64,000 nt of DNA from an uncultured Rhodospirillales bacterium (GTDB taxonomy: Bacteria > Pseudomonadota > Alphaproteobacteria > Rhodospirillales > UBA2165), in the NCBI GenBank assembly GCA_913055735.1, contig CAJXKD010000001.1, positions 1,520,281 through 1,584,280 of the forward strand. The letters are read 5' to 3'. Below, piece by piece: positions 23,541 through 41,281 of this stretch; position 1 is the stretch's first letter, and each line of letters begins with the position of its first letter. The translations under genes were made by a program, and so were the position numbers. The notes below the pieces were generated by a model. The model worked only from the letters and a program-made list of their open reading frames with translations, was not told the origin of the DNA and searched no databases.

Positions 23541-23606
23541 TTTCAGTTCTCCAGATAGAAATATTAGAAGTGACCGCCGGTTTTGGCGCCGTCGGAAAAT
23601 CAGACA
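23541..23606. promoter_or_regulatory. Divergent intergenic spacer between the 23540-leftward operon and the plus-strand FemAB-like gene
   Basis: Positional inference only. An AT-rich stretch (agatagaaatattagaag) lies between divergent starts. Confidence 0.3.
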
Positions 23607-25797: not shown

Positions 25798-27540
25798 TTA
25801 GACGACCGACGTCGGACCGGCCGCTTTCCCCGTCGCCAGCATCTTTGCGTCGCTGTCCATTGGGAATGTCTTCCTCAGCCACTCTTCCAACGAGGCCCTT
25901 CCGCGAATGACTTCCACACCGTGGTTCTGATTGCCCGACACCTTAAGCTGCCCGGATGGATCGTAATATATCGAAGGTTTGCCGAGATTGGCAGCACTAG
26001 GAGCCGTGCTAGAGAAGGGGATCGAGATACTGGCCGCCGTTTTCTGCATCAGCCGTTGCGCGGCGATTTCGTGATCGATGTTCGTACAATGACCGGATTC
26101 AATGATTTTGTTTGCAAGGCGCAGTTGCTGTTTACTGCTAAATTTACTGATTTGCCCGGTTCTGGTTCTTTTCGCCTTTAAAGCCATATGGATGCCCAAA
26201 TTTTCCAGGGACTCGGATATATCCGTAAGAAACTGGCAAACATATTTTTCCGAGTAGATGCTTTTGCGCTCACCGTGCAATACGAAATAGCTGTCCCTCA
26301 GGACCGGTATATCGAAAACGGAAACGGTTCTTGCAGGTAGGTCCGGGAGGTCTCTGCCGTTGTCCTGCAAAGGAATATTGCCCAGGGGAATGATTTCCGG
26401 ATCACCTTGGGCGACGCTTTTTATCCAGTCTTTCTGAAACTCATCGCTTACGAGATAGCGCTTCCAGTTCAGCAGCAAATGTTCCGGATTTACCGGCGGC
26501 GGTGTTTGATCCATTGCAAACTGAATGGGTTGGTTGTTGATCGAATAATAAACGATGGCGGTCTTTACGCCGCGTGCTTCGGTTTCCGCCACCCAAAGGG
26601 GGCGTCCGCCGACGCCGGTGTGCGTGGAAATATACCAGTTGGGGAGCCGGTCGTCCGATAGGCGACGCAGATATCTGATTTCCAGCGCATCCTGAATAAG
26701 CGCTGGGGCATAAACCCTTCCTTGAATCCAGCGCAATGCCGAAATCGCGATCACCTTGAAACAATCCACCCCAAATCCCAATACATTCAAGGTGCCGGTC
26801 AGCGGAGGAAAAGCCAAAGGACTGAAAACCACCTCCGCGCTTGCTCGGTGAAATGTGCTGTTCGGCTGACCGACCAGCACCCAGCCCTTCGGTCCATTTT
26901 TGCCCAAATGTTCGACGATGTAGTTCGGTAGCTGGTACGACGGATGATCGTGCGCGTCGGCCGAAAAATTCTGTGTGGGAAAACGCTCGGCGATCCAGTA
27001 CGGCGGCCGCAGATCGAAACGCCGGTTTTTCCATGCATGTTCGAAGTATTGCTTGGCCACACGGAAACCGTAAGCGATGAAACGAAGTTGACGCATTTTC
27101 CATGCAATGTTGCTTTTGGGCATATCGACCTTAATGCCCTGCGCCGCGAACTTCTCGCGCCAGACGTCGGGGGCGGCAAGCGAGATCGCCCTGCCACCGC
27201 TGATCGCCAACGGAAGCTTCCAGAATATCGCACTCCCCAGAGCATATTTGAGCACGGCGGTGCAGGCCCGCGCGTCGATCTCGGCAGTGGTGCAGTGAGA
27301 GCCGTAAAGAATCTCGTCCGTTTTTGCGACAAGTGGCACTTTGCTAACTTCGGTCAGTATCCGCAGGCCCTTCCACGGATCACCGTCAGGGCGCTGCGTT
27401 TGCCGTAGCGCCTGCAAACGCAGCCGTAACTCGCGTCTCGCAATTCGGCCGGCAAAGTCGCGACAGATTGGAATTTTTCCTATGAGACTCCGCAATTTCT
27501 CCGGCACCGGATCAGTCGATCTCTTCCAATAGGCCGTCAT
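25798..27540 (-). CDS. Large conserved-hypothetical, possible transferase (C-terminal IPFSSTA block reminiscent of 'PFTS-motif' polysaccharide biosynthesis proteins)
   Basis: 580 aa from the ATG at 27540. The longer track ORF would overlap the upstream gene by 179 nt. The function call rests only on a weak motif recollection and context. Confidence 0.3.
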   Translation of the reverse strand: MTAYWKRSTDPVPEKLRSLIGKIPICRDFAGRIARRELRLRLQALRQTQRPDGDPWKGLRILTEVSKVPLVAKTDEILYGSHCTTAEIDARACTAVLKYALGSAIFWKLPLAISGGRAISLAAPDVWREKFAAQGIKVDMPKSNIAWKMRQLRFIAYGFRVAKQYFEHAWKNRRFDLRPPYWIAERFPTQNFSADAHDHPSYQLPNYIVEHLGKNGPKGWVLVGQPNSTFHRASAEVVFSPLAFPPLTGTLNVLGFGVDCFKVIAISALRWIQGRVYAPALIQDALEIRYLRRLSDDRLPNWYISTHTGVGGRPLWVAETEARGVKTAIVYYSINNQPIQFAMDQTPPPVNPEHLLLNWKRYLVSDEFQKDWIKSVAQGDPEIIPLGNIPLQDNGRDLPDLPARTVSVFDIPVLRDSYFVLHGERKSIYSEKYVCQFLTDISESLENLGIHMALKAKRTRTGQISKFSSKQQLRLANKIIESGHCTNIDHEIAAQRLMQKTAASISIPFSSTAPSAANLGKPSIYYDPSGQLKVSGNQNHGVEVIRGRASLEEWLRKTFPMDSDAKMLATGKAAGPTSVV

Positions 27541-28858
27541 CGACAAGAATTTCACACAATCGCAAGATTTCTTGCACCGGTTGGCCGGTGCGTTCGGCGA
27601 GGAGGGCCGCGTCCGTGTCGCCGTCGGCCAAGGCCAAGATATCCATGATGAGTTTCGTGTCGCTTGCGAGCGGCTTACGTTGACCGCCAAGTGAATCCCT
27701 AAGGTTGCGTTTACTTAGATGCGGTTCGCCAACAAGTCGCGCCTTCCAAAGGCGCATGGCCTCAAGTGTTTCGAAAACCTTCCGATACAAATAGAACGAT
27801 TTGGCGAACCCCTCGGGCGAAATGACGGACATATCATCCAGGGATGTATGGTATTCTGGATACCGCCCATAAGCGGTCCGCATGATGGAAGCGACGGGAA
27901 GGTCCGCACCGGGGCTGCAATATTGGCGCTCGTCGCTCGCTCTGTCCTTAAGGAAATCGTAGGCAACGAAGTCCGGAGCAATCTTCTCGAGCACCCTGCG
28001 CGCAGCCCGGTCCGCTCTCGTGTTCCCTGTCCGCGACGGCATAAACGAAACGTTCCGGTCGTCGCCGACACAGGTCAATACGAACCCTGCCACCATTTTG
28101 GATTTCATATGGTTGAGATTACGCGAGAGATAGACGATCGGCCCGATTGTTTCCGGCACGAAAACAATCCGGTATGTGTATCTGTTTTCTCTATTGGAAA
28201 GCATGCACGCCAGAAATGTCGCCAGAGTCGGCCCCGACACCTCATTGTTCGCGAGCGAAGGATGACAGGTGTAGGTGGAAATCAGGATCTCTTTGTCGCT
28301 GTGGCCGGGAATGATGAGATCGGCATAGCTAAGGCTGCCCGGTTTTAAATCGCTGTCTACAACGACCTTGTATTTGGCTTCCGAAAGCTCGAGCCGCTGA
28401 TTGTGCGATATGCAAAACCCCCAACGTCGCCGGTAGTAGGACGTTGCGTAGGGTATCGCATCGGGAAGGTCAGGGAGGGAATGCAGATGCTTGTCCAACT
28501 CCTCGCGCGTCAGGACGCCTTCGAATGGTTCGCTGTATCCCATGAGATGGAGATTGTTGTCCGTAAAGCTGACAACCCGCTCTCCGGACATGGTTGCGAT
28601 ATAGGCATCTTTGACATTCCATTCATCGGGTACGGTCCAGTCGAAGCACTCGGTTCCGGACGGCACTTCATGAATATTCAGCGCCGGCAATTTTTCCTTA
28701 ATCATGGCCAGCGTCTGCCGCACGCCGTCGCCGGTAATGCTGCGGTTAAACGGAAATATCCGTTGAGCGAAGACATACATCTCTTGTCCGAGATGTTGTA
28801 TCTCGGGACCGAAGTCTTCGTTCGGCTTCCAGCGCGATTGATGAGGTTGGGTTTGCAT
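27512..28858 (-). CDS. Aminopeptidase-like DUF4910/DUF2172 protein with C-terminal winged-helix tail
   Basis: 448 aa. Motifs FPFNRSITGDGVRQTL, HEVPSGTECFDWTVPDEWN, IPYATSYYRRRWGFC and CHPSLANNEVSGP match my memory of this family, which recurs in polysaccharide loci. Confidence 0.7.
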   Translation of the reverse strand: MQTQPHQSRWKPNEDFGPEIQHLGQEMYVFAQRIFPFNRSITGDGVRQTLAMIKEKLPALNIHEVPSGTECFDWTVPDEWNVKDAYIATMSGERVVSFTDNNLHLMGYSEPFEGVLTREELDKHLHSLPDLPDAIPYATSYYRRRWGFCISHNQRLELSEAKYKVVVDSDLKPGSLSYADLIIPGHSDKEILISTYTCHPSLANNEVSGPTLATFLACMLSNRENRYTYRIVFVPETIGPIVYLSRNLNHMKSKMVAGFVLTCVGDDRNVSFMPSRTGNTRADRAARRVLEKIAPDFVAYDFLKDRASDERQYCSPGADLPVASIMRTAYGRYPEYHTSLDDMSVISPEGFAKSFYLYRKVFETLEAMRLWKARLVGEPHLSKRNLRDSLGGQRKPLASDTKLIMDILALADGDTDAALLAERTGQPVQEILRLCEILVDDGLLEEID

Positions 28859-28886: not shown

Positions 28887-29135
28887 TTAGGATAGCTTGT
28901 CCAGCAACAGGTCGGCGATCAGCCCGGCACTCAGCATTTCGATTTGTTCCTCGGGCGTCAGCACGATGGAGAATTCTTCCTCAATAGCCATGACAACGTT
29001 CAGGTGGCGGATACTGTCCCAAGAGTCTGTTGTATCCGGTGACGTTTCGCGCGTGATCGCTTCGGTTGGGATGTCCAGCACATCCGACAATATCGCGGCC
29101 ACCTGATCGAATACCTCTTTTTCGGTCGGTTTCAT
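28887..29135 (-). CDS. Acyl carrier protein
   Basis: 82 aa, acidic, with a four-helix-type length. DSWDSIRHL is a phosphopantetheine-attachment-type serine motif. ATGA overlap with the FkbH-like gene. Confidence 0.75.
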   Translation of the reverse strand: MKPTEKEVFDQVAAILSDVLDIPTEAITRETSPDTTDSWDSIRHLNVVMAIEEEFSIVLTPEEQIEMLSAGLIADLLLDKLS

Positions 29136-31003
29136 TTTCTTCCTATCTTGTGAACCTGCATGAAACGTGGGTACGCTTCCAGATTGGCGGCGTCTAAGTC
29201 GGCCTCGAAAATTTCATCGTAATCCGTGCGCCTAAATCCGGCATCGAGGTAGAAATTCTTCACCACTTCATTCTTTTTTGTCGGCAAGTAGACACCGCGA
29301 AGCCGACTCGCACCGCACTCCAGGGCCGACTTCTTAAGATAGGTCAGAATACCGGATTCGATCTTCCGGCCGAGGACCCGGCAACTCATCAGAAAGGTGT
29401 CGATCTCGTATGATGAAAAATCGATTTTCTTGAGGATCTGGACACCGATTAGACCGTAGTCGCCGAACTTGTCACGAGCTTTGGCAACGCTCAGTTCGAT
29501 ATTGTCCGATTCCAGGAACTCGAGGATATCCGCCATCGTGTAGCGACGCGTTGTCAGGTTGAACTGATTTGTCTTATTGATCAGTTGCACGACACGTTCG
29601 TATTCACCTGGTGTCGGAGCCCCAATGTGAAGTTCGAGATCAAGCGAACTTAGAAACTCATCCTCACTGGTCGCCGATCCGAGCAACTTCTTCCGGCCTT
29701 GTTCGGCATCGTAGGATTTGACCCGAATAGCGTCCTCGTGGGTAAGGCGTAATGCCAGCAAATGACTTTCAGACAACAGGCGTTCGCAATATCTGGAAGG
29801 TTCTGTCCCAAGGTGTACCACGGTCACTTCAGGCAGTGCGGTTCTGACTTCCTCGCACTCGACGGGATTGTCATCGGCGAAAACAAGTGACTCGAGGCCG
29901 ACACCGATTTCGTCGGCGATCTCAATAAGGTTCTGGGATTTTCGCGACCAGTTGACCTTTTTGATAGTGAAATCGTCCCATTTGAGAGGCATGTCCGTAT
30001 GGGTCTGGAAGGCCTCCAATACATCGTCGAGATTGTTCTTGCTAGCGATGGCGAGAACGATCCCGGTCTCGCGGACGGCTTTAATCAACTTCTGAAAATT
30101 TCGGTAGGCATTGCCTGGGTGATCACCGGATACTTTTAGTGCCAATGGCCCGTCTTCACCGACAATGCCGCCCCACAGTGTATTGTCGAGGTCAACCACA
30201 AGCACCTTTGCGCGCGGCCGTATCATGGCGTGGTAAAGTCGGCCGAGGTCATGCGCCAATACGTTCACCGCTTGCGCCGAAATAGGCGAAAGAGTGTGGT
30301 CCGCATTTACAGGATCAAACCATTGATCCCGTCCGGTGTCGGCAACGGTGTTCGCGTAGTCGTATACGTAAGTGTTCTCGAATTCTCCGCTCATTTCCGT
30401 GATAAGCGCGTTGAGCCTGTTTACCGCGGAAATCCGACTTTCCCTCTGATTGGCATCCATAAAATGCCCTAGCCCCCTATTCATCGGGATCATCGAATTG
30501 AGAACCAAGGGGAGCCGGCTCGCGCGCCGGAATGCCTCAATTCCGTTTCGCAGCCGGGCCGCGAAGTCGTCTACCTGTTGGGCGATTTCCGTTGCCGCCG
30601 CGAGATCTTGCGTGACCAGCGGTAGTTCTTGTTCGAGATGCAGGAGGAGCTGCACCAGCTGCGTTTCGGCCCGGAGACTTGCGTCGGGCTTGTGCAATAC
30701 CGCTTCCCATTGTTGGTAGGGAACAAATTCGGCTTTGAGGCGCATTCCCCGGAGCGCCATACAAATACCGAGGGGCGCCTCAAGCGGGTTCAGCGTAAAG
30801 CTCGATAGGAACGCGACATGAAAATCCTGTCGCGTCTCCGTGCCCTGATATTTCCCGATCTGGTTCCAAAGCCAATCGATATCGCGCCGGGGTGGTTTAT
30901 CGATGGAGCTGGATGGGATGATTGTGGCAAGGGCGCCAAAATTGCCACTTTCAAGCACCTTTGCCGTCGCTGAACGGTCAATGCGCATGGCAGACGACGT
31001 CAT
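29132..31003 (-). CDS. FkbH-like HAD-IIIC phosphatase/acyl-loading enzyme
   Basis: 623 aa. HAD motif I VLVVDLDNTLWGG and the C-terminal FLMSCRVLGRKIE...GVYLPTKKNEVVKNFY block characteristic of FkbH-domain proteins. Confidence 0.8.
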   Translation of the reverse strand: MTSSAMRIDRSATAKVLESGNFGALATIIPSSSIDKPPRRDIDWLWNQIGKYQGTETRQDFHVAFLSSFTLNPLEAPLGICMALRGMRLKAEFVPYQQWEAVLHKPDASLRAETQLVQLLLHLEQELPLVTQDLAAATEIAQQVDDFAARLRNGIEAFRRASRLPLVLNSMIPMNRGLGHFMDANQRESRISAVNRLNALITEMSGEFENTYVYDYANTVADTGRDQWFDPVNADHTLSPISAQAVNVLAHDLGRLYHAMIRPRAKVLVVDLDNTLWGGIVGEDGPLALKVSGDHPGNAYRNFQKLIKAVRETGIVLAIASKNNLDDVLEAFQTHTDMPLKWDDFTIKKVNWSRKSQNLIEIADEIGVGLESLVFADDNPVECEEVRTALPEVTVVHLGTEPSRYCERLLSESHLLALRLTHEDAIRVKSYDAEQGRKKLLGSATSEDEFLSSLDLELHIGAPTPGEYERVVQLINKTNQFNLTTRRYTMADILEFLESDNIELSVAKARDKFGDYGLIGVQILKKIDFSSYEIDTFLMSCRVLGRKIESGILTYLKKSALECGASRLRGVYLPTKKNEVVKNFYLDAGFRRTDYDEIFEADLDAANLEAYPRFMQVHKIGRK

Positions 31004-32181
31004 CGGATGAGTTCGCCTCCCGATATTACAAGCGTTTCGCCGTTGACGTAGTCGGCATCGAGCGACGCCAGGAACGAAACAGCGCCTGCGATATCCTCGG
31101 GTTTTCCCAACCTCCGGCTAGGGTTCTTCGCAGCCGCCACCTTGACTTGACGCTCAGGCACCTTGGCCAGCATCGCCGTTTCAGTCATCGACGGCGCGAT
31201 CAAGTTCGCTCGGATTCCAAATCGTGCGTACTCGATCGCCACACATTTCATCAATGCATTTAACGCACTTTTCGCAACAATGTAGGGCGCCATTTTCTCC
31301 GGGGGATTCGCCAACGTGTAACTTGAGGAAATGGCGATTAGCCGACCGAATCCCAAAGATTTCATATGCGGAAGGAAACGGTTGAGGACGGCATGCGTGC
31401 CGCGAAGCGAAATGGCCAATTGGCGGTCATATTGGCTGTAATCGGTTTCCAATGCATCAACGTAGGTAATCGGTGCGCTCGCGCAGAAGACGATTGTGTC
31501 GGGGGGGCGGCCGAACTTGCCGACGATGGCGTCGAATGTCTTCGCGGCACATTCATCGTCGGCGATATCCGCTTGGATGCCTAGAAGCGCCTCGTTATTC
31601 AAACCGACCAACGCCTCTGCGTCGTCGCGTGATTGTCTGTAGGTGAAAGCAACGCCGAAACCGTCATCGACCAGGCGTTTGGCGGTACTTGCGCCTATTC
31701 CGCGCGAGCCTCCGATAACGAGGGCGGTCCGGTCATTCGGCGGTGTGTTGTCTTCGGTTTCGTCGGCGTCAGCGACGTCCAGAACCTGGACACGGGCGTT
31801 GCCTTCGAGAACGGTCTCGCCGTTTTGGTTTGTCGCGGAAACAAAAAGGTCCATTGTGTTCGTCGACTGAGAAAGTTGCGCCACCGTGGCAACGATTTCG
31901 ATCTCATCGCCGAGAAAAACCGGAAGCCGGAATTCGAAGTTCTGTGAAAGCCAGAGCGCGCCGGGTCCGGGGAGTTCCATGCCGATTATGCGGGAAACAA
32001 TGGCCGCATAGGATGAGCCGTGCGCAACGACCCGGCGAAACTTGGTGCGTTTGGCGAACTCGGGATCCATATGCAGCGGGTTGCGATCGCCGCTTAGTTC
32101 CGCGAAGGATTCTATGAACTTCTGGTCGAGTCTTATTCTCGATCGAGCTTGTTGTCCGATATGAAACTTGGTGACAGACAT
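31000..32181 (-). CDS. Fusion protein: MaoC-type (R)-hydratase hot-dog domain + FabG-like SDR reductase
   Basis: 393 aa from the ATG at 32181, one nt after the GNAT stop. Hydratase-2 motif ELSGDRNPLHMDPEFA, followed by ALVIGGSRGIGAS and YIVAK. Confidence 0.75.
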   Translation of the reverse strand: MSVTKFHIGQQARSRIRLDQKFIESFAELSGDRNPLHMDPEFAKRTKFRRVVAHGSSYAAIVSRIIGMELPGPGALWLSQNFEFRLPVFLGDEIEIVATVAQLSQSTNTMDLFVSATNQNGETVLEGNARVQVLDVADADETEDNTPPNDRTALVIGGSRGIGASTAKRLVDDGFGVAFTYRQSRDDAEALVGLNNEALLGIQADIADDECAAKTFDAIVGKFGRPPDTIVFCASAPITYVDALETDYSQYDRQLAISLRGTHAVLNRFLPHMKSLGFGRLIAISSSYTLANPPEKMAPYIVAKSALNALMKCVAIEYARFGIRANLIAPSMTETAMLAKVPERQVKVAAAKNPSRRLGKPEDIAGAVSFLASLDADYVNGETLVISGGELIR

Positions 32182-32182
32182 G

Positions 32183-32755
32183 CTACTCACTTTCGAAAAA
32201 ACGCGTGCGGCGATGATCCCATTCATCGGCAAGAAGGCCGTATTCGATTGCGTCGACGGCCTCTCCGTTTCCATCGACAGCGGCCTGGCGCCTTACTCCT
32301 TCTCGAGTAAACCCCAGCCGGTGAAAATTAAACAGGGAAGGAACATTGGTCGATAACGCATCCGCCCAAATTCGCCGAAGCCCCAAGGTTCTGAATCCAA
32401 AATCAAAAAGAGCTGCTTGGGCCTCGATGGCGTAGGGACCGCCCCAATGGCTACGCGATCCAATGAGATAGCCGTAACTGGCAACATCGTCGAATGGATC
32501 TTTGTTCAAGGAAATTGTGCCGATCTTTTTTTCCGCATCCACGACGATGCAGAAAAAATAGCTGTTGGGGGCGTCGATCTTGCCGCGCGCGGACACCTTG
32601 ATGCGTTCCACGTCCTGGGCGATGTGTCTGACATATAGATGTTTGATGACTTCCTCATCTGCGAACCAAGACAGATAAGATTCGTCGATGTCACTTTCGA
32701 TGAAAGGTCGAAGTGTCACGTTGGGCATGGGGAGCGTCGGAATTTGCCGAGTCAT
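32183..32755 (-). CDS. pseH: GNAT N-acyltransferase, RimL/PseH-like
   Basis: 190 aa. Acetyltransf_3-type layout (VTLRPFIESD...GYLIGSRSHWGGPYA...FHRLGFTREG). It sits between pseF and the ACP module. The symbol is tentative. Confidence 0.4.
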   Translation of the reverse strand: MTRQIPTLPMPNVTLRPFIESDIDESYLSWFADEEVIKHLYVRHIAQDVERIKVSARGKIDAPNSYFFCIVVDAEKKIGTISLNKDPFDDVASYGYLIGSRSHWGGPYAIEAQAALFDFGFRTLGLRRIWADALSTNVPSLFNFHRLGFTREGVRRQAAVDGNGEAVDAIEYGLLADEWDHRRTRFFESE

Positions 32756-33474
32756 TTTCGCGAGGTTTCGGGTTCCGATTGTGTTTTCGCTCTGAAAAGA
32801 GCTTCGGCAACCGCCCAGTCCTCCATTGTATCAATATCTAAACCATGGGCACGGGAAAGCGGATAGCCAAGGAAACCCTTGTCCGCGCCAGCACCCTCCG
32901 AACTTAAGACCGTTCCCGGCGAAAATACGGCAAACGTTCCGCTGTCGTGGTACTTGGGCGCGAGGTCGTTTGATCGGACGGCAAACATTCCGGGCTGACA
33001 GGGGTGAAGTATCCCATCCGGCGACATCTCGAACGCCCACTCGATTGGCACGGCGTAATCGCAGACCGCGAGCATCGAATGCCGGCCCTCGTGTTTTGCA
33101 AAGAGACGTGCCGCTCCTTCAAGATCGGCGACGTCGATCAAAGGAGCACACGCCATCAGCAACCAGATCTCGTCGAACGAGTGGCCGTTTTCCGAGAATT
33201 TTTCGCAGACAAACTTCAAAACCGGCATGATCGGTACGTCGTCCCCCGCTAGATTATCGGGACGGAGGAACTCCGGCTCGAACCCGAGCGTGGTCACGAT
33301 GTCGGCGACCTCTTGGTCTTCGGTCGATACATGCACGGTTTCAAACAAATTACTTTTATCGACGGTGTCCAGTATATGCCCGATCATCGGTTTGCCACAG
33401 AAATCGCGAATATTCTTGCGCGGTATTCTCTTGCTTCCGCCGCGGGCGGGCACGATCGCAAGGCGCCGGGTCAT
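32752..33474 (-). CDS. pseF: Pseudaminic acid cytidylyltransferase-type CMP-sugar synthetase
   Basis: MTRRLAIVPARGGSKRIPRKNIRDFCGKPMIGH from the ATG at 33474, which gives an ATGA overlap with the WbqC-like stop. The track ORF starts at a GTG at 33483. Confidence 0.7.
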   Translation of the reverse strand: MTRRLAIVPARGGSKRIPRKNIRDFCGKPMIGHILDTVDKSNLFETVHVSTEDQEVADIVTTLGFEPEFLRPDNLAGDDVPIMPVLKFVCEKFSENGHSFDEIWLLMACAPLIDVADLEGAARLFAKHEGRHSMLAVCDYAVPIEWAFEMSPDGILHPCQPGMFAVRSNDLAPKYHDSGTFAVFSPGTVLSSEGAGADKGFLGYPLSRAHGLDIDTMEDWAVAEALFRAKTQSEPETSRK

Positions 33475-34169
33475 TGGGCGCACCCCGATCGAATGATGTT
33501 TTGACTTGCGGGACCGGCGTTGAACAGCAAGTCGATAGCGGACAGATAGGGAATGAAGTCTCCATATAACTGTTCGTAGACGGGATGGTCATATTGAAAA
33601 TAGCGCAAGTCGATGCTTTGGCGTTCGAGGGCGTTGGATTCGTCCAAATAGACCTTCGAACCCGGCGGTGAAATATACGTGTCACCGCCGACGCGCGTAC
33701 AGATCGAAGCCAGGAGCTCGGCCTTGGCTCCGGTATGTTCAATATCGCTCGCCAACAGTATTGGGGTTTTTAATTCAAACATCGACGAGAGCAAGCGGAT
33801 GAGGTCGATCGTTAGAGCGGCGAGCTGGGCGTATCCCCTGCCCAATATCTCAAGCAGGCTGGGTCCGTACTCCGCAAAGTAGGCTGCGTTGGAGTAGTTG
33901 TGAGTTAATGACTTGATATGATTGGCCGGAAAATCACGCGTGGCATCAACCTGGACGTCACAAATTCGTTGATCACGTTTGCCTTTTGAAATGACGGGAA
34001 CGGTCAGCCAACTGGGCCCGTTGGCCGTCTTAATCCGATTGCGTTGTTGCCATGATCGCCGTGTGAATTGCACGGTATCCAGAAGTACGAACACATCGAC
34101 GGTGTCAATCAGCGCGAAATAGCCACACCAAGGCAAATAGGTCGGTTGCATTATGGCGACCTTGGTCAT
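33471..34169 (-). CDS. WbqC-family protein
   Basis: 232 aa. The N-terminal IMQPTYLPWCGYFALIDTVDVFVLLDTVQF is characteristic of WbqC-like proteins. Confidence 0.75.
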   Translation of the reverse strand: MTKVAIMQPTYLPWCGYFALIDTVDVFVLLDTVQFTRRSWQQRNRIKTANGPSWLTVPVISKGKRDQRICDVQVDATRDFPANHIKSLTHNYSNAAYFAEYGPSLLEILGRGYAQLAALTIDLIRLLSSMFELKTPILLASDIEHTGAKAELLASICTRVGGDTYISPPGSKVYLDESNALERQSIDLRYFQYDHPVYEQLYGDFIPYLSAIDLLFNAGPASQNIIRSGCAQ

Positions 34170-35074
34170 TCTTCTATCGCCAGTCCAATGCCGTCGGCGC
34201 CAAAGTTGTTCCCGTTATAGAACATGAAATGTTGGCCGTTGTGTTGAACAACAGCCGCGTACTCGATCATTTCGCTGTCAAAACCGGAATTGGAGATATC
34301 GATTCCCGAGGCGTCGTCCATTCGTTCCCATGACACGCCATCTTCCGACTCGGCGTATCCGATCCGATACGTTTTACCCCGGAACGAGTACCACATCCGG
34401 TAAAGGCCATCTTCTTTCAGAACCCATGGACGCGAAATGGCGTACTCGTCGTTAGACAGAAAATCGATCGAAACCCGGCCTTCGCGTATCCACTGTTCGC
34501 CATCGGATGAGTGGGCAAACTTGATATGATATTTTGGGAGCGTTTCGCCGCTGGTTTCACGCCACGCCGTGTTTGTCGTGTACCACATTTTGTAGTCGCT
34601 GGAATCCTTGAGAACGTAAGAGGCGGCCATGAAATAAGGATCGATGTCGCTCCGTGAAAAGTAGGGGGCCGGCGAGGTTTTTTGGAAAGTCTTACCGTTG
34701 TCTCGGCTCGTTGCGGTTCCGATCATGGCGTAAAAGGGGACGCGTTTTCCCTGCATCCAGCCAATATAGAAGAGCCGCTTGCAGCCTCCGTCCGTGACGA
34801 TACAGGACGGAATTACGGCGCTGTCGTCGAAGAGGCCGAGGTCTCCCAGTTGGACGATAGGTTCTACACTAAAATCAAGGATCTCGTTTGGTTTCTCGAC
34901 GTTGATCGTAAATGCGCCCACCTGGCTTAGGTTGTTACTGTTACGGCCGGCAAAATAGACTCGAAAATACCCATCTCCCAGGTCATCCGGCGTCGGAACC
35001 CAAGCATGACTTTTCAGCCAGTCCGCGCGTCCGGCAGGCTCGAAAATAAGGCCAAGTTTTTTCCAGTGAAACAA
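34166..35074 (-). CDS. Beta-propeller, glycoside-hydrolase-like (GH32/43/68-clan-like) protein of unknown role
   Basis: 302 aa with an apparent TTG start. Repeated aromatic-rich strands (YFRVYFAG, KMWYTTNTAW, YRMWYSFRG, HFMFYNGNN). The family assignment is tentative. Confidence 0.4.
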   Translation of the reverse strand: MFHWKKLGLIFEPAGRADWLKSHAWVPTPDDLGDGYFRVYFAGRNSNNLSQVGAFTINVEKPNEILDFSVEPIVQLGDLGLFDDSAVIPSCIVTDGGCKRLFYIGWMQGKRVPFYAMIGTATSRDNGKTFQKTSPAPYFSRSDIDPYFMAASYVLKDSSDYKMWYTTNTAWRETSGETLPKYHIKFAHSSDGEQWIREGRVSIDFLSNDEYAISRPWVLKEDGLYRMWYSFRGKTYRIGYAESEDGVSWERMDDASGIDISNSGFDSEMIEYAAVVQHNGQHFMFYNGNNFGADGIGLAIEE

Positions 35075-35120
35075 CGATTAGAGCGTTCTAGAAGGCCGCG
35101 TCAGTGACCGATCGATCGAA

Positions 35121-35783
35121 TTAGCGTAATGCTTCCGTCTTATAGACATAGACGGTGAATTCCCAAAGGGGATAGTCGTGCCGAATCACAACGTGGCGGC
35201 TTAAGTTTTTGACGCAGAAAGAAAATACACTCGCGGGATCTGCGTAGAATAGGTGGTCGTCTCGGTAATCGACATAAGAGGTCATGAGATTGAAGGCGAT
35301 TCCCCGGCGGCAGAGTTGGAACATACGTTCAATCATCGTCTGTACATAGGACCACCATTCTTCGTCAGTTGCATTCCCTTTGACGGTAAACAGGCCTGAA
35401 TTAATGACGTAGTCCCCAATCATCCAATCTTGTTGGTGTGCTCTTATATTGGCAACGTGAAGGTCGGCGGTTTCTCCGAGACGCGTTTTTGCAGCTGCAA
35501 TCATGTCCTCCGAAATATCTGATCCGACGTAGTCGCAAGCAACACCATTCGTCTTTAAGTAGTCCCGCATATGCGCCAAGCCGCATCCAACATCATGAAG
35601 CCGTTGGCCAGACAGATTTCCAACGTCGCATAGGATCTCGAAGCGCATTTCTTGGGACTCGGTGTTCGACCAATTAACGCCTTTCGGACTATCGCCAAAC
35701 TGCTTCAGCGCAGTCTCATAATATGACCTTGATGCCGATTCCAATCCGGCGAAACTCTGATTTTTTGGAGTGTCGACAGTCAA
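35121..35783 (-). CDS. Class I SAM-dependent methyltransferase
   Basis: 220 aa with a TTG start overlapping the upstream stop. Motif I RLHDVGCGLAHM. Confidence 0.7.
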   Translation of the reverse strand: MTVDTPKNQSFAGLESASRSYYETALKQFGDSPKGVNWSNTESQEMRFEILCDVGNLSGQRLHDVGCGLAHMRDYLKTNGVACDYVGSDISEDMIAAAKTRLGETADLHVANIRAHQQDWMIGDYVINSGLFTVKGNATDEEWWSYVQTMIERMFQLCRRGIAFNLMTSYVDYRDDHLFYADPASVFSFCVKNLSRHVVIRHDYPLWEFTVYVYKTEALR

Positions 35784-36796
35784 AATTGATCTTCCTCCAG
35801 AGTCTCGTCTTGCGCTATTTCCCGCCGCGTCGATTTTCCAACAACGTGGGCAATGTCTCTAGGCAGAATGCCCGATCGCGCGCGTTTGACGGCGAGCATG
35901 TCGGCGTTCACCACCGTGCCCGGAGGGATGATCTGTTTGGCAACGAGCACCTTCCGGTTGATCAGGCGTTTCTCGGCTTCGTATTTGACGGGATAGGACG
36001 TTGTCTTGCCGAGCGCGGCTTCGACGTTCCGGATGGCACTTACCATTTCATTGAGGGGCTGGGGTTCGAGCGCAAAGTGATGGTCCGGTCCATCTAGGGA
36101 ATTGTCTAAGGTGATATGTTTTTCGATGACCCGTGCGCCCAACGCAACAGCCGCCACAGGGATGGAAGTATGTTGTGAGTGATCGGAGAAACCGATGGGA
36201 ACGCCAAAGGTTTTGGAAAGCCAGTCGATCATTCCCAAGTTGCAGTCGGCCGGCGCGGTCGGATAGTCGGAGACACAGTGTAGTATACACAATGGGACAT
36301 CGCGTGTTTTGCGGATACACGACACGGCGATCTCAATGTCCTGCGCGGTCATCAGCCCCGTCGATAAGAATATCGGGCTACCCGTTCTTGCAGAAGCTCG
36401 GATCAGTGGAAGGTCGTGGACTTCCGGTGACGCGATCTTGATGAAGGGCGCGGCGTCGTTTTCCACGAGCAGCGAGACGGCCTCTTCGTCAAACGGCGAT
36501 GCACAAAACCCGATACCCGCGTTTTCGCATTCGGCGATAAGATCAGGAATCCACTCACGAGGTAGTTCCAATGGCGCGAGGACCTCATGGGCCGGAGAGT
36601 TTTCCTGAACCAGCCAATCGGCACGAAAGATCTGGAATTTCGCGAAATCACATCCGGCTTGTGCCGCGACCTGTATGAGCCGTTTTGCCTGGTCCAATGA
36701 TCCGTCGAAATTAGACCCGATTTCCGCGACAATAATGGCGGAGCCGGTGGGGTCGGCAAGCCTTTTGGCGACGTCTGCATTTGTCCTATTGGTCAT
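35780..36796 (-). CDS. pseI: Nonulosonic acid synthase (NeuB/PseI/LegI family) with C-terminal SAF domain
   Basis: 338 aa. Motifs IVAEIGSNFDGSLDQAKRLIQVAAQAGCDFAKFQ, GFSDHS, and a C-terminal SAF-like VAKQIIPPGTVV. Pse specificity is inferred from the neighbours. Confidence 0.7.
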   Translation of the reverse strand: MTNRTNADVAKRLADPTGSAIIVAEIGSNFDGSLDQAKRLIQVAAQAGCDFAKFQIFRADWLVQENSPAHEVLAPLELPREWIPDLIAECENAGIGFCASPFDEEAVSLLVENDAAPFIKIASPEVHDLPLIRASARTGSPIFLSTGLMTAQDIEIAVSCIRKTRDVPLCILHCVSDYPTAPADCNLGMIDWLSKTFGVPIGFSDHSQHTSIPVAAVALGARVIEKHITLDNSLDGPDHHFALEPQPLNEMVSAIRNVEAALGKTTSYPVKYEAEKRLINRKVLVAKQIIPPGTVVNADMLAVKRARSGILPRDIAHVVGKSTRREIAQDETLEEDQF

Positions 36797-37833
36797 TCGT
36801 CAAACAACTGTGCGATACGTTTCTCGATCCTCGAATAGGCTAATCCGTCGATAAGCGTACTGCCTCGCTCGGCGTACCGGGATCTTAGGTGAGGGTTGCT
36901 GAGGAACTCGCTTAAGTCGTCGGCAAGTTTGTTCCTTTCCATTTTGTCAGCGCGGCCCGCGTAGAATACGAAATCCCCGTCGATAAAATTCCTGATTACG
37001 GCACTATCGTGATCGAATTGCGTGATCATAAGTGTGGGAACGCCGGCTGCGGCTGTTTCATACTTAATCAAGCCTTCTCCGGTGATGGCGATATCGGCCC
37101 AGGCCAAGTGGTCGCTGAGATGAGGGGAAAAGGGGACTACCTCGCAAACGCTTAATTTCCTTGCCGCCTCTTCAATTCCGTCGCGACAACCGGCTGTCAT
37201 GGCAGGGCTCGTAGCAACACGGACTTTGATCGTAGAATAAGTCAGCTGGGCAATCGCATCGAGCACAAGGGGAGTAACGCACATTGGATCGCTTCCACTA
37301 ATGCAAACGAAGATATTCTCCGCCTGCCGAACGATTTCCTTGTTTGCGCGCAGCTTATGAAGAGAAGGATCGCACAGGAAAAAGCTTAGCCCTAATAAAG
37401 TACGGTCAGACACCGCCGATCTCGCAGGTGCATCCGACGGACATTCATATGGAACGATGGTAAGTGCTGTTCCCAGCTTTGGAACGCGGCAGTCCGAAAT
37501 CCCGACCGTTTTCTTGGCGCCGAGAGCGGAGAGCTTCTGGTGATACTTTTCAAGCCGAGATGGTGTTTTCAGGTTTTCCTGCTGACATAGATCTGTAACC
37601 AGCAAATCTGCCTTAGTGTCCTGGACAACTGTAAAAGTTTGATTCGCATCCTCCTCGATGGTCAGCACCGGGGGGAGGAAGCGGACGTCCCATTGTTCCA
37701 GCGGCACTAATCTCATCGCGTCTTCCGTACCGGGTAGCCTGCGCGTAACAAATACAAACGGTTTCTCAAAAGGCAGTTCTTCGGCAAGCCGCCAGCACCT
37801 AACAAGATGCCCCAACCCGACGGAAGTCCCCAC
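36793..37833 (-). CDS. pseG: PseG-like UDP-sugar hydrolase (GT28-type GT-B fold)
   Basis: 346 aa with GTG start. Motifs GLGHLVRCWRLAEEL, VCISGSDP and ADIAITGEGLIKYETAAAGVPTL follow the PseG pattern. Confidence 0.6.
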   Translation of the reverse strand: MGTSVGLGHLVRCWRLAEELPFEKPFVFVTRRLPGTEDAMRLVPLEQWDVRFLPPVLTIEEDANQTFTVVQDTKADLLVTDLCQQENLKTPSRLEKYHQKLSALGAKKTVGISDCRVPKLGTALTIVPYECPSDAPARSAVSDRTLLGLSFFLCDPSLHKLRANKEIVRQAENIFVCISGSDPMCVTPLVLDAIAQLTYSTIKVRVATSPAMTAGCRDGIEEAARKLSVCEVVPFSPHLSDHLAWADIAITGEGLIKYETAAAGVPTLMITQFDHDSAVIRNFIDGDFVFYAGRADKMERNKLADDLSEFLSNPHLRSRYAERGSTLIDGLAYSRIEKRIAQLFDE

Positions 37834-39142: not shown

Positions 39143-39184
39143 TTTTGTTCAGACCATTTGCTGTGGTTGGTTTATCCGATTTCG

Positions 39185-41267: not shown

Positions 41268-41281
41268 TTCCTCGGTTCTTC

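What the first reader, a model, noticed from the sequence alone, without database searches (positions are those of the whole stretch)
28887..32755. Carrier-protein (ACP/FkbH/MaoC-SDR/GNAT) acylation module hard-wired into a nonulosonic acid pathway
Seen: four consecutive genes, three junctions with ATGA overlaps.
- An 82-aa ACP with a DSWDS serine motif.
- A 623-aa FkbH-like HAD-IIIC protein (VVDLDNTLWGG; C-terminal MSCRVLGRKIE...YLPTKKN).
- A MaoC hydratase (ELSGDRNPLHMDPEFA) fused to a FabG-type reductase (GGSRGIG, YIVAK).
- A RimL/PseH-type GNAT, whose start overlaps the stop of the CMP-sugar synthetase pseF immediately upstream.

Established: FkbH enzymes of methoxymalonyl-ACP and tetronate pathways load a glycerate-derived C3 unit onto a dedicated ACP. 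MaoC plus ketoreductase chemistry makes or interconverts 3-hydroxyacyl thioesters. Natural pseudaminic acids carry diverse N-acyl groups, including acetyl, formyl, 3-hydroxybutyryl and glyceroyl-type groups.

Inference: this looks like a self-contained, thiotemplated route. It would build a non-acetyl acyl group (glyceroyl or 3-hydroxyacyl) and transfer it to an amino group of the nonulosonic precursor. The GNAT may use acyl-ACP rather than acetyl-CoA. To my knowledge an ACP-dependent N-acylation route for nonulosonic acids has not been characterised biochemically. This is the most system-like novelty in the window.
Basis: partly seen in the sequence, partly recalled or inferred. Interest (0 to 1): 0.8.

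Follow-up and report, generated by a model that had tools for sequence, protein, structure and literature searches.

The report
Carrier-protein acyl cassette in pseudaminic-acid operon
Four tightly packed genes inside a pseudaminic-acid sugar operon look like a small carrier-protein assembly line. It would make an unusual three-carbon acyl group (most likely lactyl, from glycerate) and attach it to the sugar in place of the usual acetyl; the cassette recurs in many environmental bacteria and has never been tested biochemically.

Summary
Window 28887-32755 (minus strand) encodes GNAT, a MaoC-dehydratase/SDR-reductase fusion, FkbH and ACP. All quoted motifs are present, and ATGA overlaps occur at pseF/GNAT, MaoC-SDR/FkbH and FkbH/ACP.

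The operon continues into a Cj1295-type DUF4910 protein and a PFTS-motif protein.

MaoC/SDR-FkbH-ACP recurs in at least 14 independent loci from several phyla. A homologous GNAT is adjacent in several, and about half lie next to NeuB/PseB/PseC genes. In L092 the cassette sits where pseH normally lies.

The window has bona fide PseB and PseC, no canonical PseH, and only divergent PseG/PseI/PseF.

Best reading:
- FkbH loads glycerate on the ACP.
- MaoC dehydrates it to pyruvoyl-ACP and the SDR reduces it to lactyl-ACP, as in the FR901464/lankacidin starter units.
- The GNAT transfers the acyl to the C4 amine of the UDP-sugar, giving a predicted Pse5Ac7Lac. N5, after DUF4910 action, is the alternative site.

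FkbH/ACP/GNAT/DUF4910 neighbourhoods beside nonulosonic acid genes were already noted in C. jejuni and C. acetobutylicum. This is a new variant of a known kind, with no biochemical evidence.

The parts
41282..42277 (-). PseB, the inverting UDP-GlcNAc 4,6-dehydratase; first step of the pseudaminic acid pathway
   Evidence: TIGR03589 scores 509.6 bits against a cutoff of 407.75
40077..41333 (-). PseC aminotransferase. It makes UDP-4-amino-4,6-dideoxy-beta-L-AltNAc, the predicted acyl acceptor. The true start is probably downstream of the TTG that opens the longest ORF.
   Evidence: TIGR03588 scores 463.5 bits against a cutoff of 423.5
37859..40084 (-). Aldo-keto reductase (39185-40084) and class-III aminotransferase (37859-39142). 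These are accessory genes of unknown role that travel with the cassette in related loci.
   Evidence: Pfam and NCBIfam hits. The aminotransferase is 43-44% identical to the Aminotran_3 domains of fusion proteins in L089, L091 and L092.
36793..37833 (-). Divergent PseG-like UDP-sugar hydrolase
   Evidence: TIGR03590 scores 68.8 bits, below the cutoff of 153.55. It is 24% identical to the Glyco_tran_28_C protein of L092.
35780..36796 (-). NeuB-family nonulosonic acid synthase (divergent PseI-like)
   Evidence: Pfam NeuB scores 252.7 bits. PseI scores 250 (cutoff 340.25) and NeuB_NnaB 302.4 (cutoff 399.65).
33471..35783 (-). SAM methyltransferase (35121-35783), GH130/BNR-like protein (34166-35074) and WbqC-like protein (33471-34169). 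These are tailoring genes of unknown role lying between the synthase and the cytidylyltransferase.
   Evidence: Pfam. WbqC homologues lie near the cassette in L087, L089 and L094.
32752..33483 (-). PseF-like CMP-nonulosonate cytidylyltransferase; its stop overlaps the GNAT start (ATGA)
   Evidence: TIGR03584 scores 178.1 bits, below the cutoff of 205.7. Junction read.
32183..32755 (-). Cassette GNAT (Acetyltransf_3, RimL-like fold); predicted acyl-ACP-dependent N-acyltransferase occupying the PseH role
   Evidence: Pfam scores 72.4 bits, while the PseH model scores only 21.6 (cutoff 93.1). Orthologues lie next to the cassette in L084, L087, L018, L091, L092, L004 and the P0023 locus. AF2 model has pLDDT 82.4 and its best PDB neighbours are RimL/RimJ/SpeG-like GNATs.
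31000..32181 (-). MaoC (R)-hydratase/dehydratase domain (aa 1-130) fused to an SDR reductase (aa 150-393). Predicted to convert glyceryl-ACP to pyruvoyl-ACP and then to lactyl-ACP.
   Evidence: Pfam. D32, N34, P35 and H37 of the hydratase motif and K304 of YxxxK are invariant in 17 homologues. FkbH and ACP are adjacent in 5 of 5 contexts found by starting from this protein.
29132..31003 (-). FkbH-like three-domain loader: FkbH_N domain, HAD-IIIC phosphatase and a GNAT-fold domain carrying Cys541. Predicted to load glycerate from 1,3-bisphosphoglycerate onto the ACP.
   Evidence: TIGR01686 scores 298.7 bits. D271, D273, N274, D377, D378, S540, C541 and R542 are invariant in 20 homologues. AF2 model has pLDDT 83.5. 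Foldseek hits are 3slr (E 2e-24), GNAT domains (about 5e-6) and MDP-1 (about 2e-5).
28887..29135 (-). Dedicated acyl carrier protein; the phosphopantetheine serine is most likely S41 (WDSIRH)
   Evidence: PP-binding scores 21.1 bits and NCBIfam ACP models reach E 3.6e-8. W39, S41 and H44 are invariant in 10 cassette ACPs.
27512..28858 (-). DUF4910/DUF2172/HTH_47 protein of the Cj1295 / CA_C2195 family. Gene callers start it at 28780. It is a candidate sugar-amide deacylase or transacylase.
   Evidence: Pfam scores 335 bits. PDB 3k9t matches at E 2.9e-103. Literature: PMC3068675 and PMC4000134. It co-occurs with FkbH in L032 and L094.
25798..27540 (-). PFTS-motif polysaccharide biosynthesis protein; overlaps the DUF4910 stop by 29 nt; role unknown
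   Evidence: TIGR04417 scores 123.8 bits against a cutoff of 100. Gene calls.

Best explanation
This is a portable module that generates an acyl donor and transfers it, inserted into a pseudaminic-acid (Pse) pathway.

Step 1 (inferred from family membership). FkbH uses its HAD domain and the conserved Cys541 in its GNAT-fold domain to take a glycerate unit from 1,3-bisphosphoglycerate. It places that unit on Ser41 of the dedicated ACP.

Step 2 (inferred by analogy with characterised polyketide starter-unit chemistry). The MaoC domain dehydrates glyceryl-S-ACP to enol-pyruvoyl, that is pyruvoyl-S-ACP. The fused SDR then reduces the 2-keto group to give lactyl-S-ACP.

Step 3 (inferred from gene order and the absence of any other acyltransferase). 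The cassette GNAT takes the place of PseH. It transfers the ACP-bound acyl to the C4 amine of UDP-4-amino-4,6-dideoxy-beta-L-AltNAc, which PseB and PseC make.

Step 4. The divergent PseG-, PseI- and PseF-like enzymes carry the altered intermediate on to a CMP-activated Pse5Ac7(lactyl)-type sugar for a surface polysaccharide.

The DUF4910 protein downstream may deacylate or exchange an N-acyl group, as proposed for C. jejuni Cj1295. In that case the acyl would end on N5 instead.

Shown here: the genes, their domains, their catalytic motifs, their translational coupling and the cross-phylum conservation of the cassette. Not shown: substrates, products and the acceptor position.
For: - Domains and motifs of all four proteins are confirmed.
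- FkbH has three domains, with its invariant Cys at the beta4/alpha3 loop of a GNAT fold.
- FkbH is the only ACP loader. No KS, AT or AMP-ligase occurs anywhere in the 64-kb window.
- MaoC/SDR, FkbH and ACP are always together. This holds for 6 of 6 contexts of close FkbH homologues and 5 of 5 contexts found from the MaoC/SDR fusion. It also holds in L004/L005, L007/L016, L018 and L050.
- DH-KR bifunctional proteins convert glyceryl-S-ACP to lactyl-S-ACP in the FR901464 and lankacidin pathways (PMC4765723). Pyruvoyl- or lactoyl-ACP there derives from 1,3-bisphosphoglycerate (PMC6162330).
- PseB and PseC pass their equivalog cutoffs. The three enzymes that act after the acylation step all fall below theirs.
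- The window has no canonical PseH and no other Acetyltransf-type or hexapeptide transferase, apart from a divergently transcribed Acetyltransf_6 gene.
- In L092 the gene order is PseB (513.8 bits), PseC (464.3 bits), a 658-aa protein, GNAT, MaoC/SDR, FkbH, ACP, a methyltransferase, a 500-aa protein, PseG-like, NeuB and a cytidylyltransferase. The cassette therefore sits in the pseH position. L018 and L091 are similar.
- In L032 a GNAT that passes the PseH model (111.4 bits against a cutoff of 93.1) is translationally coupled to FkbH-ACP.
- In C. jejuni, strains lacking cj1302 (FkbH) or cj1301 lack the glycerate-derived Pse forms (PMC7099621).
Against: - There is no biochemical or glycan-structure evidence for this organism or for any cassette homologue.
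- The MaoC domain is a single hot-dog hydratase-2 type. Homology to the polyketide DH*-KR* proteins could not be tested, so only the logic is shared.
- The GNAT scores only 21.6 bits on the PseH model and is a generic RimL-like GNAT by structure. Nothing in its sequence shows a preference for acyl-ACP over acyl-CoA.
- A canonical pseH could lie elsewhere in the genome.
- The adjacent DUF4910 and the C. jejuni precedent (acyl on N5) argue for a different acceptor position.
- About half of the cassette loci show no NeuB gene in the flanks seen (L087, L090, L094, L004, L016), so the cassette is not specific to nonulosonic acids.
- An N-lactyl pseudaminic acid was not found as a described structure in the literature searched. 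Only a generic mention of 'lactoyl' modifications turned up.
Confidence: 0.5

Rival explanations
1. The ACP chemistry is the same, but the acceptor differs. The GNAT is simply the pathway's acetyl-CoA-dependent PseH equivalent for N7. The ACP-bound acyl is instead installed at N5 after the DUF4910 protein removes the original N-acetyl group, as in the C. jejuni route. Alternatively it is passed to another acceptor on the polysaccharide.
For: - DUF4910 follows the ACP directly in the same operon.
- Cj1295 is required for the N5-(2,3-di-O-methylglyceroyl) form of Pse (PMC3068675).
- DUF4910 also accompanies FkbH in L032, L094 and C. acetobutylicum.
- The L032 GNAT is a bona fide PseH-family member.
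- In L090 the same MaoC/SDR-FkbH-ACP set is paired with MBOAT O-acyltransferases and no GNAT.
Against: - The window would then have no enzyme to transfer the acyl from the ACP.
- The CA_C2195 structure lacks a conventional metallopeptidase active site (PMC4000134).
- Most cassette loci with PseB and PseC (L018, L091, L092, P0023) show no DUF4910 in the flanks seen, yet keep the GNAT next to MaoC/SDR.
Confidence: 0.25
2. The acyl group stays glyceroyl, or becomes an oxidised or methylated glycerate. MaoC/SDR does something other than the dehydration-reduction to lactyl, for example oxidation of glyceryl-ACP as in methoxymalonyl-ACP pathways.
For: - Natural Pse derivatives with N-glyceroyl groups (T. 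forsythia Pse5Am7Gra) and with di-O-methylglyceroyl groups (C. jejuni) are known.
- Methyltransferases are present in the operon.
- FkbH-ACP-GNAT sets without MaoC/SDR exist, for example L032.
Against: - The MaoC hydratase motif and the SDR catalytic residues are strictly conserved, and the fusion is found only next to FkbH-ACP. It therefore must act on the FkbH product.
- Methoxymalonyl-type oxidation uses 3-hydroxyacyl-CoA-dehydrogenase-type and acyl-CoA-dehydrogenase-type enzymes, not a hot-dog dehydratase (established pathway knowledge, from memory).
- The only sensible dehydratase reaction on a 2,3-dihydroxyacyl thioester gives pyruvoyl.
Confidence: 0.13
3. This is a 3-hydroxyacyl route, such as 3-hydroxybutyryl. 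MaoC and the FabG-like SDR would interconvert enoyl, 3-hydroxy and 3-ketoacyl thioesters drawn from fatty-acid metabolism.
For: - The SDR's best NCBIfam hits are FabG-type and acetoacetyl-CoA-reductase-type models.
- 3-Hydroxybutyryl is a common N-acyl group on Pse (PMC11040635).
Against: - All FabG and PhaB equivalog cutoffs are missed by a wide margin, for example 128 bits against 297.
- No ketosynthase, malonyl transferase or acyl-ACP ligase is present to supply a C4 chain.
- The fusion is invariably linked to FkbH, which would be pointless in this scheme.
Confidence: 0.07

Closest known systems
Lactyl-ACP starter-unit pathway of FR901464 and lankacidin (FkbH-type loader, ACP, DH*-KR* bifunctional protein); the bryostatin BryA loading module is recalled from memory as similar
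   Same: A glycerate unit from 1,3-bisphosphoglycerate is placed on an ACP. A dehydratase fused to a ketoreductase then converts it through pyruvoyl-ACP to lactyl-ACP (PMC4765723; PMC6162330). The window has the same four functions, with dehydratase and reductase fused.
   Different: - Here the proteins are free-standing.
- The dehydratase is a MaoC-type single hot-dog domain.
- There is no ketosynthase or polyketide synthase.
- The outlet is a GNAT inside a sugar-nucleotide operon, so the acyl group would end on an amine rather than prime a polyketide.
- Sequence homology to Fr9/Lkc DH*-KR* was not testable here.
[quoted passage not shown]
   Same: Both loci have a DUF4910/aminopeptidase-like protein (Cj1295, genetically required), a putative N-acetyltransferase (Cj1298), a HAD-IIIC/FkbH protein (Cj1302) and a methyltransferase (Cj1300), all next to pseB and pseC. 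Both involve a glycerate-derived N-acyl group on Pse.
   Different: - C. jejuni is not reported to have a MaoC/SDR fusion, and its product keeps both glycerate oxygens as methyl ethers.
- C. jejuni has a separate canonical PseH (Cj1313).
- Its context is flagellar, with maf genes. The window shows a polysaccharide-type island with an ABC exporter and many glycosyltransferases.
- Direct sequence comparison was not possible with these tools.
C. acetobutylicum CA_C2195 neighbourhood (Das et al. 2014, PDB 3k9t)
   Same: The neighbourhood contains DUF4910, a GNAT (CA_C2197), an ACP (CA_C2198) and an 'N-acetyltransferase + HAD phosphatase' (CA_C2199, the FkbH architecture), beside NeuB-type and cytidylyltransferase genes. 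It was reported as conserved in about 10 bacterial clades. The window's DUF4910 matches 3k9t at E 2.9e-103.
   Different: That study did not recognise the HAD/GNAT protein as a glycerate loader and proposed no acyl chemistry. No MaoC/SDR is listed in its table.
Canonical Pse pathway PseB-PseC-PseH-PseG-PseI-PseF, and the PseJ variant in which a formyltransferase supplies the N7 substituent
   Same: PseB and PseC are bona fide. Changing the N7 substituent through a different acyl-transferring enzyme has a precedent in the formyltransferase PseJ, which gives Pse5Ac7Fo (PMC11040635). That PseJ acts at the PseH step is recalled from memory.
   Different: The GNAT is not a PseH-family member by HMM (21.6 bits against 93.1), and the donor is predicted to be an acyl-ACP. 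PseG-, PseI- and PseF-like proteins are all below their equivalog cutoffs.

Membership tests
FkbH glyceryl-ACP loaders (TIGR01686) | FkbH-domain HMM above the curated cutoff over its full length | tested here: met
   298.7 bits against a cutoff of 146.65; profile positions 3-322 of 323 are matched
FkbH glyceryl-ACP loaders (TIGR01686) | HAD motif I (DxDxT) and the other phosphatase motifs | tested here: met
   D271-L-D273-N-T275, S321-K-N and D377-D378 are invariant or nearly invariant in 20 homologues. The HAD core superposes on MDP-1 and 3slr.
FkbH glyceryl-ACP loaders (TIGR01686) | Conserved C-terminal cysteine that carries the glyceryl-S-enzyme intermediate | tested here: met
   C541, in S540-C541-R542, is invariant in 20 homologues and lies in a GNAT-fold domain. 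Its equivalence to the catalytic Cys of OzmB is recalled from memory and was not aligned here.
FkbH glyceryl-ACP loaders (TIGR01686) | Adjacent dedicated ACP | tested here: met
   The ACP start overlaps the FkbH stop. An ACP is detectable next to FkbH in 40 of 80 GTDB loci by tblastn.
FkbH glyceryl-ACP loaders (TIGR01686) | Uses 1,3-bisphosphoglycerate and yields glyceryl-S-ACP | not testable with these tools
   Needs an enzyme assay with intact-protein MS
Type II acyl carrier proteins | PP-binding fold with a conserved D-S-[LI] phosphopantetheine serine | tested here: met
   PF00550 scores 21.1 bits, only marginally above the 20.8 cutoff. S41 is invariant within W-D-S-[IL]-x-H across 10 cassette ACPs.
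MaoC / hydratase-2 (R)-specific dehydratases | Hydratase-2 motif with catalytic Asp and His | tested here: met
   PF01575 scores 65.3 bits. In S-G-D32-x-N34-P35-L-H37, the residues D32, N34, P35 and H37 are invariant in 17 homologues.
FabG 3-oxoacyl-ACP reductase (equivalog) | Score above the FabG equivalog cutoff | tested here: not met
   TIGR01830 scores 128.2 bits against a cutoff of 297.75. The protein is still a classical SDR: it has GGSRGIG, a Ser or Thr at the catalytic position and Y300-x-x-x-K304.
DH*-KR* lactyl-ACP system (FR901464 / lankacidin) | Dehydratase fused to a ketoreductase, acting with an FkbH-type loader and an ACP | tested here: met
   Architecture; precedent
DH*-KR* lactyl-ACP system (FR901464 / lankacidin) | Sequence homology of the dehydratase and reductase to the characterised DH*-KR* proteins, and hand-over to a ketosynthase | not tested
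No ketosynthase occurs in the window, so membership of that system is not claimed, only a shared chemical logic.
PseH (TIGR03585) | Score above the PseH equivalog cutoff | tested here: not met
   Window GNAT scores 21.6 bits against a cutoff of 93.1. No PseH structure appears among sequence or fold hits. Related cassette GNATs range from no hit (L018, L084, L087, L092) through 43.4 bits (L004) to 111.4 bits (L032).
Pseudaminic acid pathway | PseB and PseC equivalogs | tested here: met
   509.6 bits against 407.75, and 463.5 bits against 423.5
Pseudaminic acid pathway | PseG, PseI and PseF equivalogs | tested here: inconclusive
   Scores are 68.8 against 153.55, 250 against 340.25 and 178.1 against 205.7. 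Homologous proteins are present but all fall below cutoff.
Cj1295 / CA_C2195 family (DUF4910-DUF2172-HTH_47) | Three-domain architecture | tested here: met
   PF16254 scores 335 bits, PF09940 128.3 and PF16221 39.3. 3k9t matches at E 2.9e-103.
C. jejuni-type flagellin glycosylation island | Flagellin, maf or flagellar genes in the neighbourhood | tested here: not met
   None among the main ORFs of the 64-kb window scanned with Pfam. The context is glycosyltransferases, an ABC exporter and WbpM- and WecA-like genes.

The most novel reading that the evidence does not exclude
MaoC/SDR-FkbH-ACP is a widespread, portable generator of lactyl-ACP for glycan decoration, and its output is plugged into different transferases. 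In this window a PseH-derived GNAT uses acyl-ACP instead of acetyl-CoA and makes a 7-N-lactyl pseudaminic acid. That would be the first ACP-dependent N-acylation of a nonulosonic acid precursor. In other genomes the same three genes feed MBOAT O-acyltransferases or other amino-sugar pathways.
Probability: 0.35. Interest if true: 0.7.

Novelty: new variant of a known kind. Interest (0 to 1): 0.55.

Why it matters
Pseudaminic and legionaminic acids on flagella, capsules and O-antigens carry many different N-acyl groups. These groups shape phage, antibody and lectin recognition.

The enzymes that install the non-acetyl groups are still described as 'largely unknown' (PMC11040635, 2024). For N-glyceroyl, finding them was called 'a major challenge' (PMC5378307, 2017).

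This cassette offers a compact, conserved four-protein system with a precise, mass-resolved prediction:
- +88 Da on the ACP, then +70, then +72;
- then +72 Da on the UDP-sugar.

It can be reconstituted in vitro. If confirmed, it would do four things:
- explain one route to C3-acyl nonulosonic acids;
- link polyketide starter-unit chemistry to glycan tailoring;
- give annotators a rule for hundreds of genes now called 'HAD-IIIC phosphatase' or '3-oxoacyl-ACP reductase';
- provide enzymes for chemoenzymatic synthesis of N-modified Pse.

Tried and rejected
- **C. jejuni comparison.** Direct sequence comparison with Cj1295, Cj1298 and Cj1302 was not possible.
- **Primary paper.** He et al. 2014 (DH*-KR*) is not held. 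A review and the lankacidin paper were used instead.
- **GNAT homologue search.** It found only 4 proteins because of the word filter. A GNAT-first survey of contexts could therefore not be done.
- **GNAT structure.** The fold search gave only generic RimL/RimJ/SpeG-like neighbours and does not discriminate donor or acceptor. The sequence search of the PDB was likewise generic.
- **Promoter and terminator scan.** It found fewer sites than the shuffles in 24-43.5 kb. This is uninformative, though consistent with one long operon.
- **Literature searches.** Two searches were dominated by unrelated terms. The Pelagibacterales O-chain paper had nothing relevant.
- **Organism.** Its identity could not be established. 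The window matches JGI metagenome 3300026971, contig Ga0207716_100003. The 90% protein clusters of the GNAT, FkbH and MaoC/SDR also include sequences from an unnamed NCBI assembly.
- **Rejected ideas.** The 424-aa MaoC/SDR start, because it would overlap the GNAT by 92 nt. S38 as the phosphopantetheine site. A fatty-acid-derived 3-hydroxyacyl donor.

Full report
**Observation**

The region 28887-32755 carries four consecutive minus-strand genes.

- **ACP (82 aa).** It matches PP-binding only marginally: 21.1 bits against a cutoff of 20.8. It also matches ten NCBIfam ACP models, the best at E 3.6e-8.
- **FkbH (623 aa).** It matches the FkbH domain model over its full length: TIGR01686 scores 298.7 bits against a cutoff of 146.65. 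It also matches HAD-IIIC.
- **MaoC/SDR.** The third protein has a MaoC dehydratase domain (65.3 bits) fused to a classical SDR (adh_short_C2, 153.5 bits).
- **GNAT (190 aa).** The fourth is an Acetyltransf_3 GNAT (72.4 bits).

ATGA start/stop overlaps occur at pseF/GNAT, MaoC-SDR/FkbH and FkbH/ACP. The GNAT and MaoC/SDR genes are separated by one base.

Two corrections apply:
- The longest MaoC/SDR ORF (424 aa) would overlap the GNAT by 92 nt. The 393-aa start at 32181 is the one used by a gene caller and fits the geometry.
- The serine conserved across cassette ACPs is S41, in W-D-S-[IL]-x-H, not S38.

**Context**

The window matches a 1.16-Mb contig of JGI metagenome 3300026971. All 64 kb form a surface-glycan island. 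It contains:
- glycosyltransferases;
- a WecA-like and a WbpM-like gene;
- an ABC exporter;
- a carbamoyl- and a sulfo-transferase;
- radical SAM enzymes;
- several sugar-nucleotide pathways.

No flagellar genes were found.

Upstream of the cassette, in the same direction, lie the following genes:
- PseB, 509.6 bits against a cutoff of 407.75;
- PseC, 463.5 bits against 423.5;
- an aldo-keto reductase;
- a class-III aminotransferase;
- a weak PseG-like protein, 68.8 bits against 153.55;
- a NeuB-family synthase, scoring 250 on PseI (cutoff 340.25);
- a methyltransferase;
- a GH130/BNR-like protein;
- WbqC;
- a PseF-like cytidylyltransferase, 178.1 bits against 205.7.

Downstream of the ACP the operon continues. 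First comes a DUF4910/DUF2172/HTH_47 protein. Then comes a PFTS-motif protein that overlaps it by 29 nt.

Pfam scans of the main ORFs of the window found no canonical PseH and no other GNAT-type or hexapeptide acyltransferase. The one exception is a divergently transcribed Acetyltransf_6 gene at 23583-24629.

**Catalytic features**

*FkbH.* In an alignment of 20 FkbH homologues (31-50% identity) these residues are invariant: D271, D273 and N274 (HAD motif I), S321-K-N, D377-D378 and S540-C541-R542. An AlphaFold model (pLDDT 83.5) shows three domains:
- an N-terminal domain;
- a HAD core, matching PDB 3slr at E 2e-24 and MDP-1 at about 2e-5;
- a C-terminal GNAT fold, matching GNAT domains at about 5e-6.

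Cys541 lies at the end of the strand that precedes the R-x-x-G-R-K loop. In GNAT enzymes that loop is the pantetheine-pyrophosphate-binding loop. This placement is read from the model and is an inference. It suits a covalent acyl-S-Cys handing its cargo to the ACP arm.

*MaoC/SDR.* In 17 MaoC/SDR homologues, D32, N34, P35 and H37 of the hydratase-2 motif are invariant. So are a VAHG motif, LPGPGA, and K304 of Y-x-x-x-K.

**The cassette is conserved and portable**

*Starting from FkbH.* All six independent contexts of close homologues (38-48% identity) have MaoC/SDR directly upstream and an ACP directly downstream. These are L084/85, L086, L087/88, L089 and the P0023 locus, in addition to the window. 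A GNAT orthologue is adjacent in most, and a B12-radical-SAM gene often precedes it.

*Starting from the MaoC/SDR fusion.* Five of five contexts (30-40% identity) have an FkbH-sized or FkbH_N-annotated protein and a small ACP next to it: L090 to L094.

*Further examples* appear among 80 GTDB loci:
- Methylobacillus (L004/L005);
- Nitrospinota (L007/L016);
- a Rhodospirillaceae MAG (L018);
- Sulfurimonas (L050).

*Link to nonulosonic acid genes.* NeuB or PseB/PseC genes lie within the fetched flanks in the window, L018, L086, L089, L091, L092 and the P0023 locus.

L092 is the clearest case. Its gene order is PseB (513.8 bits), PseC (464.3 bits), a 658-aa protein, GNAT, MaoC/SDR, FkbH, ACP, a TylF methyltransferase, a 500-aa protein, a PseG-like protein, NeuB and a cytidylyltransferase. 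The cassette occupies the place where pseH normally sits.

*Other contexts.* Other loci carry the cassette beside DegT/GFO_IDH/hexapeptide genes (L087, L094). In L090 it sits beside two MBOAT genes and no GNAT. The three-gene core therefore looks like a general acyl-donor generator with interchangeable transferases.

**Which acyl group**

FkbH is the only enzyme in the cassette, and in the window, that can load an ACP. There is no ketosynthase, malonyl transferase or adenylating ligase. A fatty-acid-type 3-hydroxyacyl donor is therefore unlikely.

The MaoC/SDR fusion occurs only with FkbH-ACP, so it must act on the FkbH product. A hot-dog dehydratase acting on a 2,3-dihydroxypropanoyl thioester gives enol-pyruvoyl, that is pyruvoyl. 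An SDR then gives lactyl.

This sequence has been characterised for the starter units of FR901464 and lankacidin. There, 'DH-KR bifunctional proteins' convert glyceryl-S-ACP into lactyl-S-ACP (PMC4765723). Pyruvoyl- or lactoyl-ACP in that system derives from 1,3-bisphosphoglycerate (PMC6162330).

This is inference by analogy. Homology between the MaoC domain and the polyketide DH* domains could not be tested.

**Where it goes**

Arguments for the C4 amine of the PseC product, the future N7:
- The cassette GNAT is the only candidate for the PseH step in the window.
- It sits in the pseH position in L092, L091 and L018.
- Enzymes before that step (PseB, PseC) are canonical. All three after it are divergent, as expected if they handle an altered substrate.
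- The GNAT lineage grades into PseH. L032's GNAT, translationally coupled to FkbH-ACP, passes the PseH model (111.4 bits against 93.1). L004's scores 43.4. The window's scores 21.6.

Arguments for N5:
- The DUF4910 gene follows the ACP.
- Its C. jejuni homologue Cj1295 is required for 7-acetamido-5-(2,3-di-O-methylglyceroyl)amino-Pse, and was proposed to remove the N5 acetyl group.
- The C. acetobutylicum homologue (PDB 3k9t; the window protein matches at E 2.9e-103) lacks a standard metallopeptidase site. It was proposed to act as a transacylase or amidase on sugars.

I favour N7, at roughly 2:1. Nothing in the GNAT sequence or model reveals whether it prefers acyl-ACP or acyl-CoA.

**Comparison with what is known**

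The general idea is not new. An FkbH/ACP/GNAT/DUF4910 set next to nonulosonic acid genes has been seen before in two organisms.

*C. jejuni NCTC 11168.*
- It has cj1295, cj1298 (N-acetyltransferase), cj1300 (methyltransferase) and cj1302 (HAD-IIIC/FkbH) beside pseB and pseC.
- Strain 12664, in which cj1302 is a pseudogene, and strain 12661, which lacks cj1301, both lack the glycerate-modified sugars.

*C. acetobutylicum.* It has CA_C2195 to CA_C2199 with the same functions, and the neighbourhood was reported as conserved across about ten clades.

New relative to those reports:
- the MaoC/SDR fusion, as a constant partner of FkbH-ACP;
- the specific lactyl prediction that follows;
- the placement of the cassette at the PseH position;
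- the modular pairing with either GNAT or MBOAT outlets.

No paper in the searchable library links FkbH to pseudaminic acid beyond a passing gene-content remark. Recent papers still call the N-modification enzymes largely unknown.

**Verdict**

- This is a new variant of a known kind. It is widespread, uncharacterised and sharply testable in vitro.
- Confidence is about 0.8 that an ACP-tethered, glycerate-derived acyl group is made here for glycan decoration.
- Confidence is about 0.5 for the full chain (lactyl, GNAT transfer from ACP, Pse precursor).
- Interest is 0.55.

Noticed in passing
window 54098-55836 (-): A split transketolase pair: the Transketolase_N protein at 55012-55836, and the Transket_pyr + Transketolase_C protein at 54098-55015. 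It sits inside the glycan island next to a methyltransferase and an epimerase. It might supply a two-carbon (glycolyl or hydroxyethyl) unit or build a branched sugar.
   Followed up: no
window 45089-51353 (-): A run of tailoring genes: a 629-aa B12-binding radical SAM protein (49464-51353), a carbamoyltransferase (47763-49397), a 491-aa SGNH/AlgX-like protein (46253-47728) and a sulfotransferase (45089-46252). In related loci a 519-aa B12-radical-SAM gene, 23-26% identical to the window's, sits immediately upstream of the cassette GNAT (L084, L087, L089, P0023 locus). It may C-methylate the acyl group or the sugar.
   Followed up: partly
window 37859-40084 (-); L089, L091, L092: The class-III aminotransferase resembles glutamate-1-semialdehyde aminomutase. 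Together with a KidO-like aldo-keto reductase it lies between PseC and the PseG-like gene. Homologues (43-44% identity) occur in cassette loci as fusions to CTP_transf_3 (L089, L091) or to a GNAT (L092, followed by an aldo-keto reductase). They look like a conserved but unexplained part of this type of nonulosonic acid pathway.
   Followed up: partly
window 13900-21356 (-): A possible second CMP-sugar pathway. It comprises another CTP_transf_3 cytidylyltransferase (19710-20477; PseF model 66 bits), an FkbM methyltransferase, an SDR, a radical SAM/SPASM protein (17770-18900), a 609-aa protein with no family hit, a 2OG-Fe(II) oxygenase (14891-15877) and a GT2.
   Followed up: no
L090 6627-12183: A variant of the cassette with no GNAT. 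The order is MBOAT, a 313-aa protein, MaoC/SDR, FkbH, ACP, with a second MBOAT nearby. This recalls DltB/DltC-type O-acylation from a carrier protein, and suggests the same acyl-ACP is used for O-acylation of a polysaccharide there.
   Followed up: partly
L032 6751-14434: A Bacillota MAG locus of the C. jejuni / C. acetobutylicum type. It contains GT2-TPR, DUF4910, a formyltransferase-like protein, PseF, then FkbH, ACP (74 aa) and a PseH-family GNAT with overlapping stops and starts, then a glyoxalase, a methyltransferase and NeuB. It has no MaoC/SDR, so a glyceroyl or methylglyceroyl product is expected.
   Followed up: partly
window 25798-27540 (-): A PFTS-motif polysaccharide biosynthesis protein (TIGR04417, 123.8 bits), translationally coupled to the DUF4910 gene. 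The local Pfam copy has no model for it, though a precomputed PF27878 hit exists. Its function is unknown.
   Followed up: no
window 23583-24629 (+): An Acetyltransf_6 (FemAB/CelD-like GNAT) gene transcribed against the direction of the island. It is the only other acyltransferase-like gene in the window.
   Followed up: no
L018 5931-7826; L091 6290-8278; L092 6444-8420: A conserved protein of about 630-660 aa with no Pfam hit lies between PseC and the cassette GNAT in three loci. It has no homologue among the window ORFs at E 1e-8.
   Followed up: no
window 59665-61218 (-), 63496-63969 (-), 7480-8724 (-): Further sugar pathways sit at the window edges: a PfkB kinase + cytidylyltransferase-like fusion, an FdtA/WxcM-like isomerase, and a sugar C-methyltransferase (Methyltransf_13/14).
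   Followed up: no
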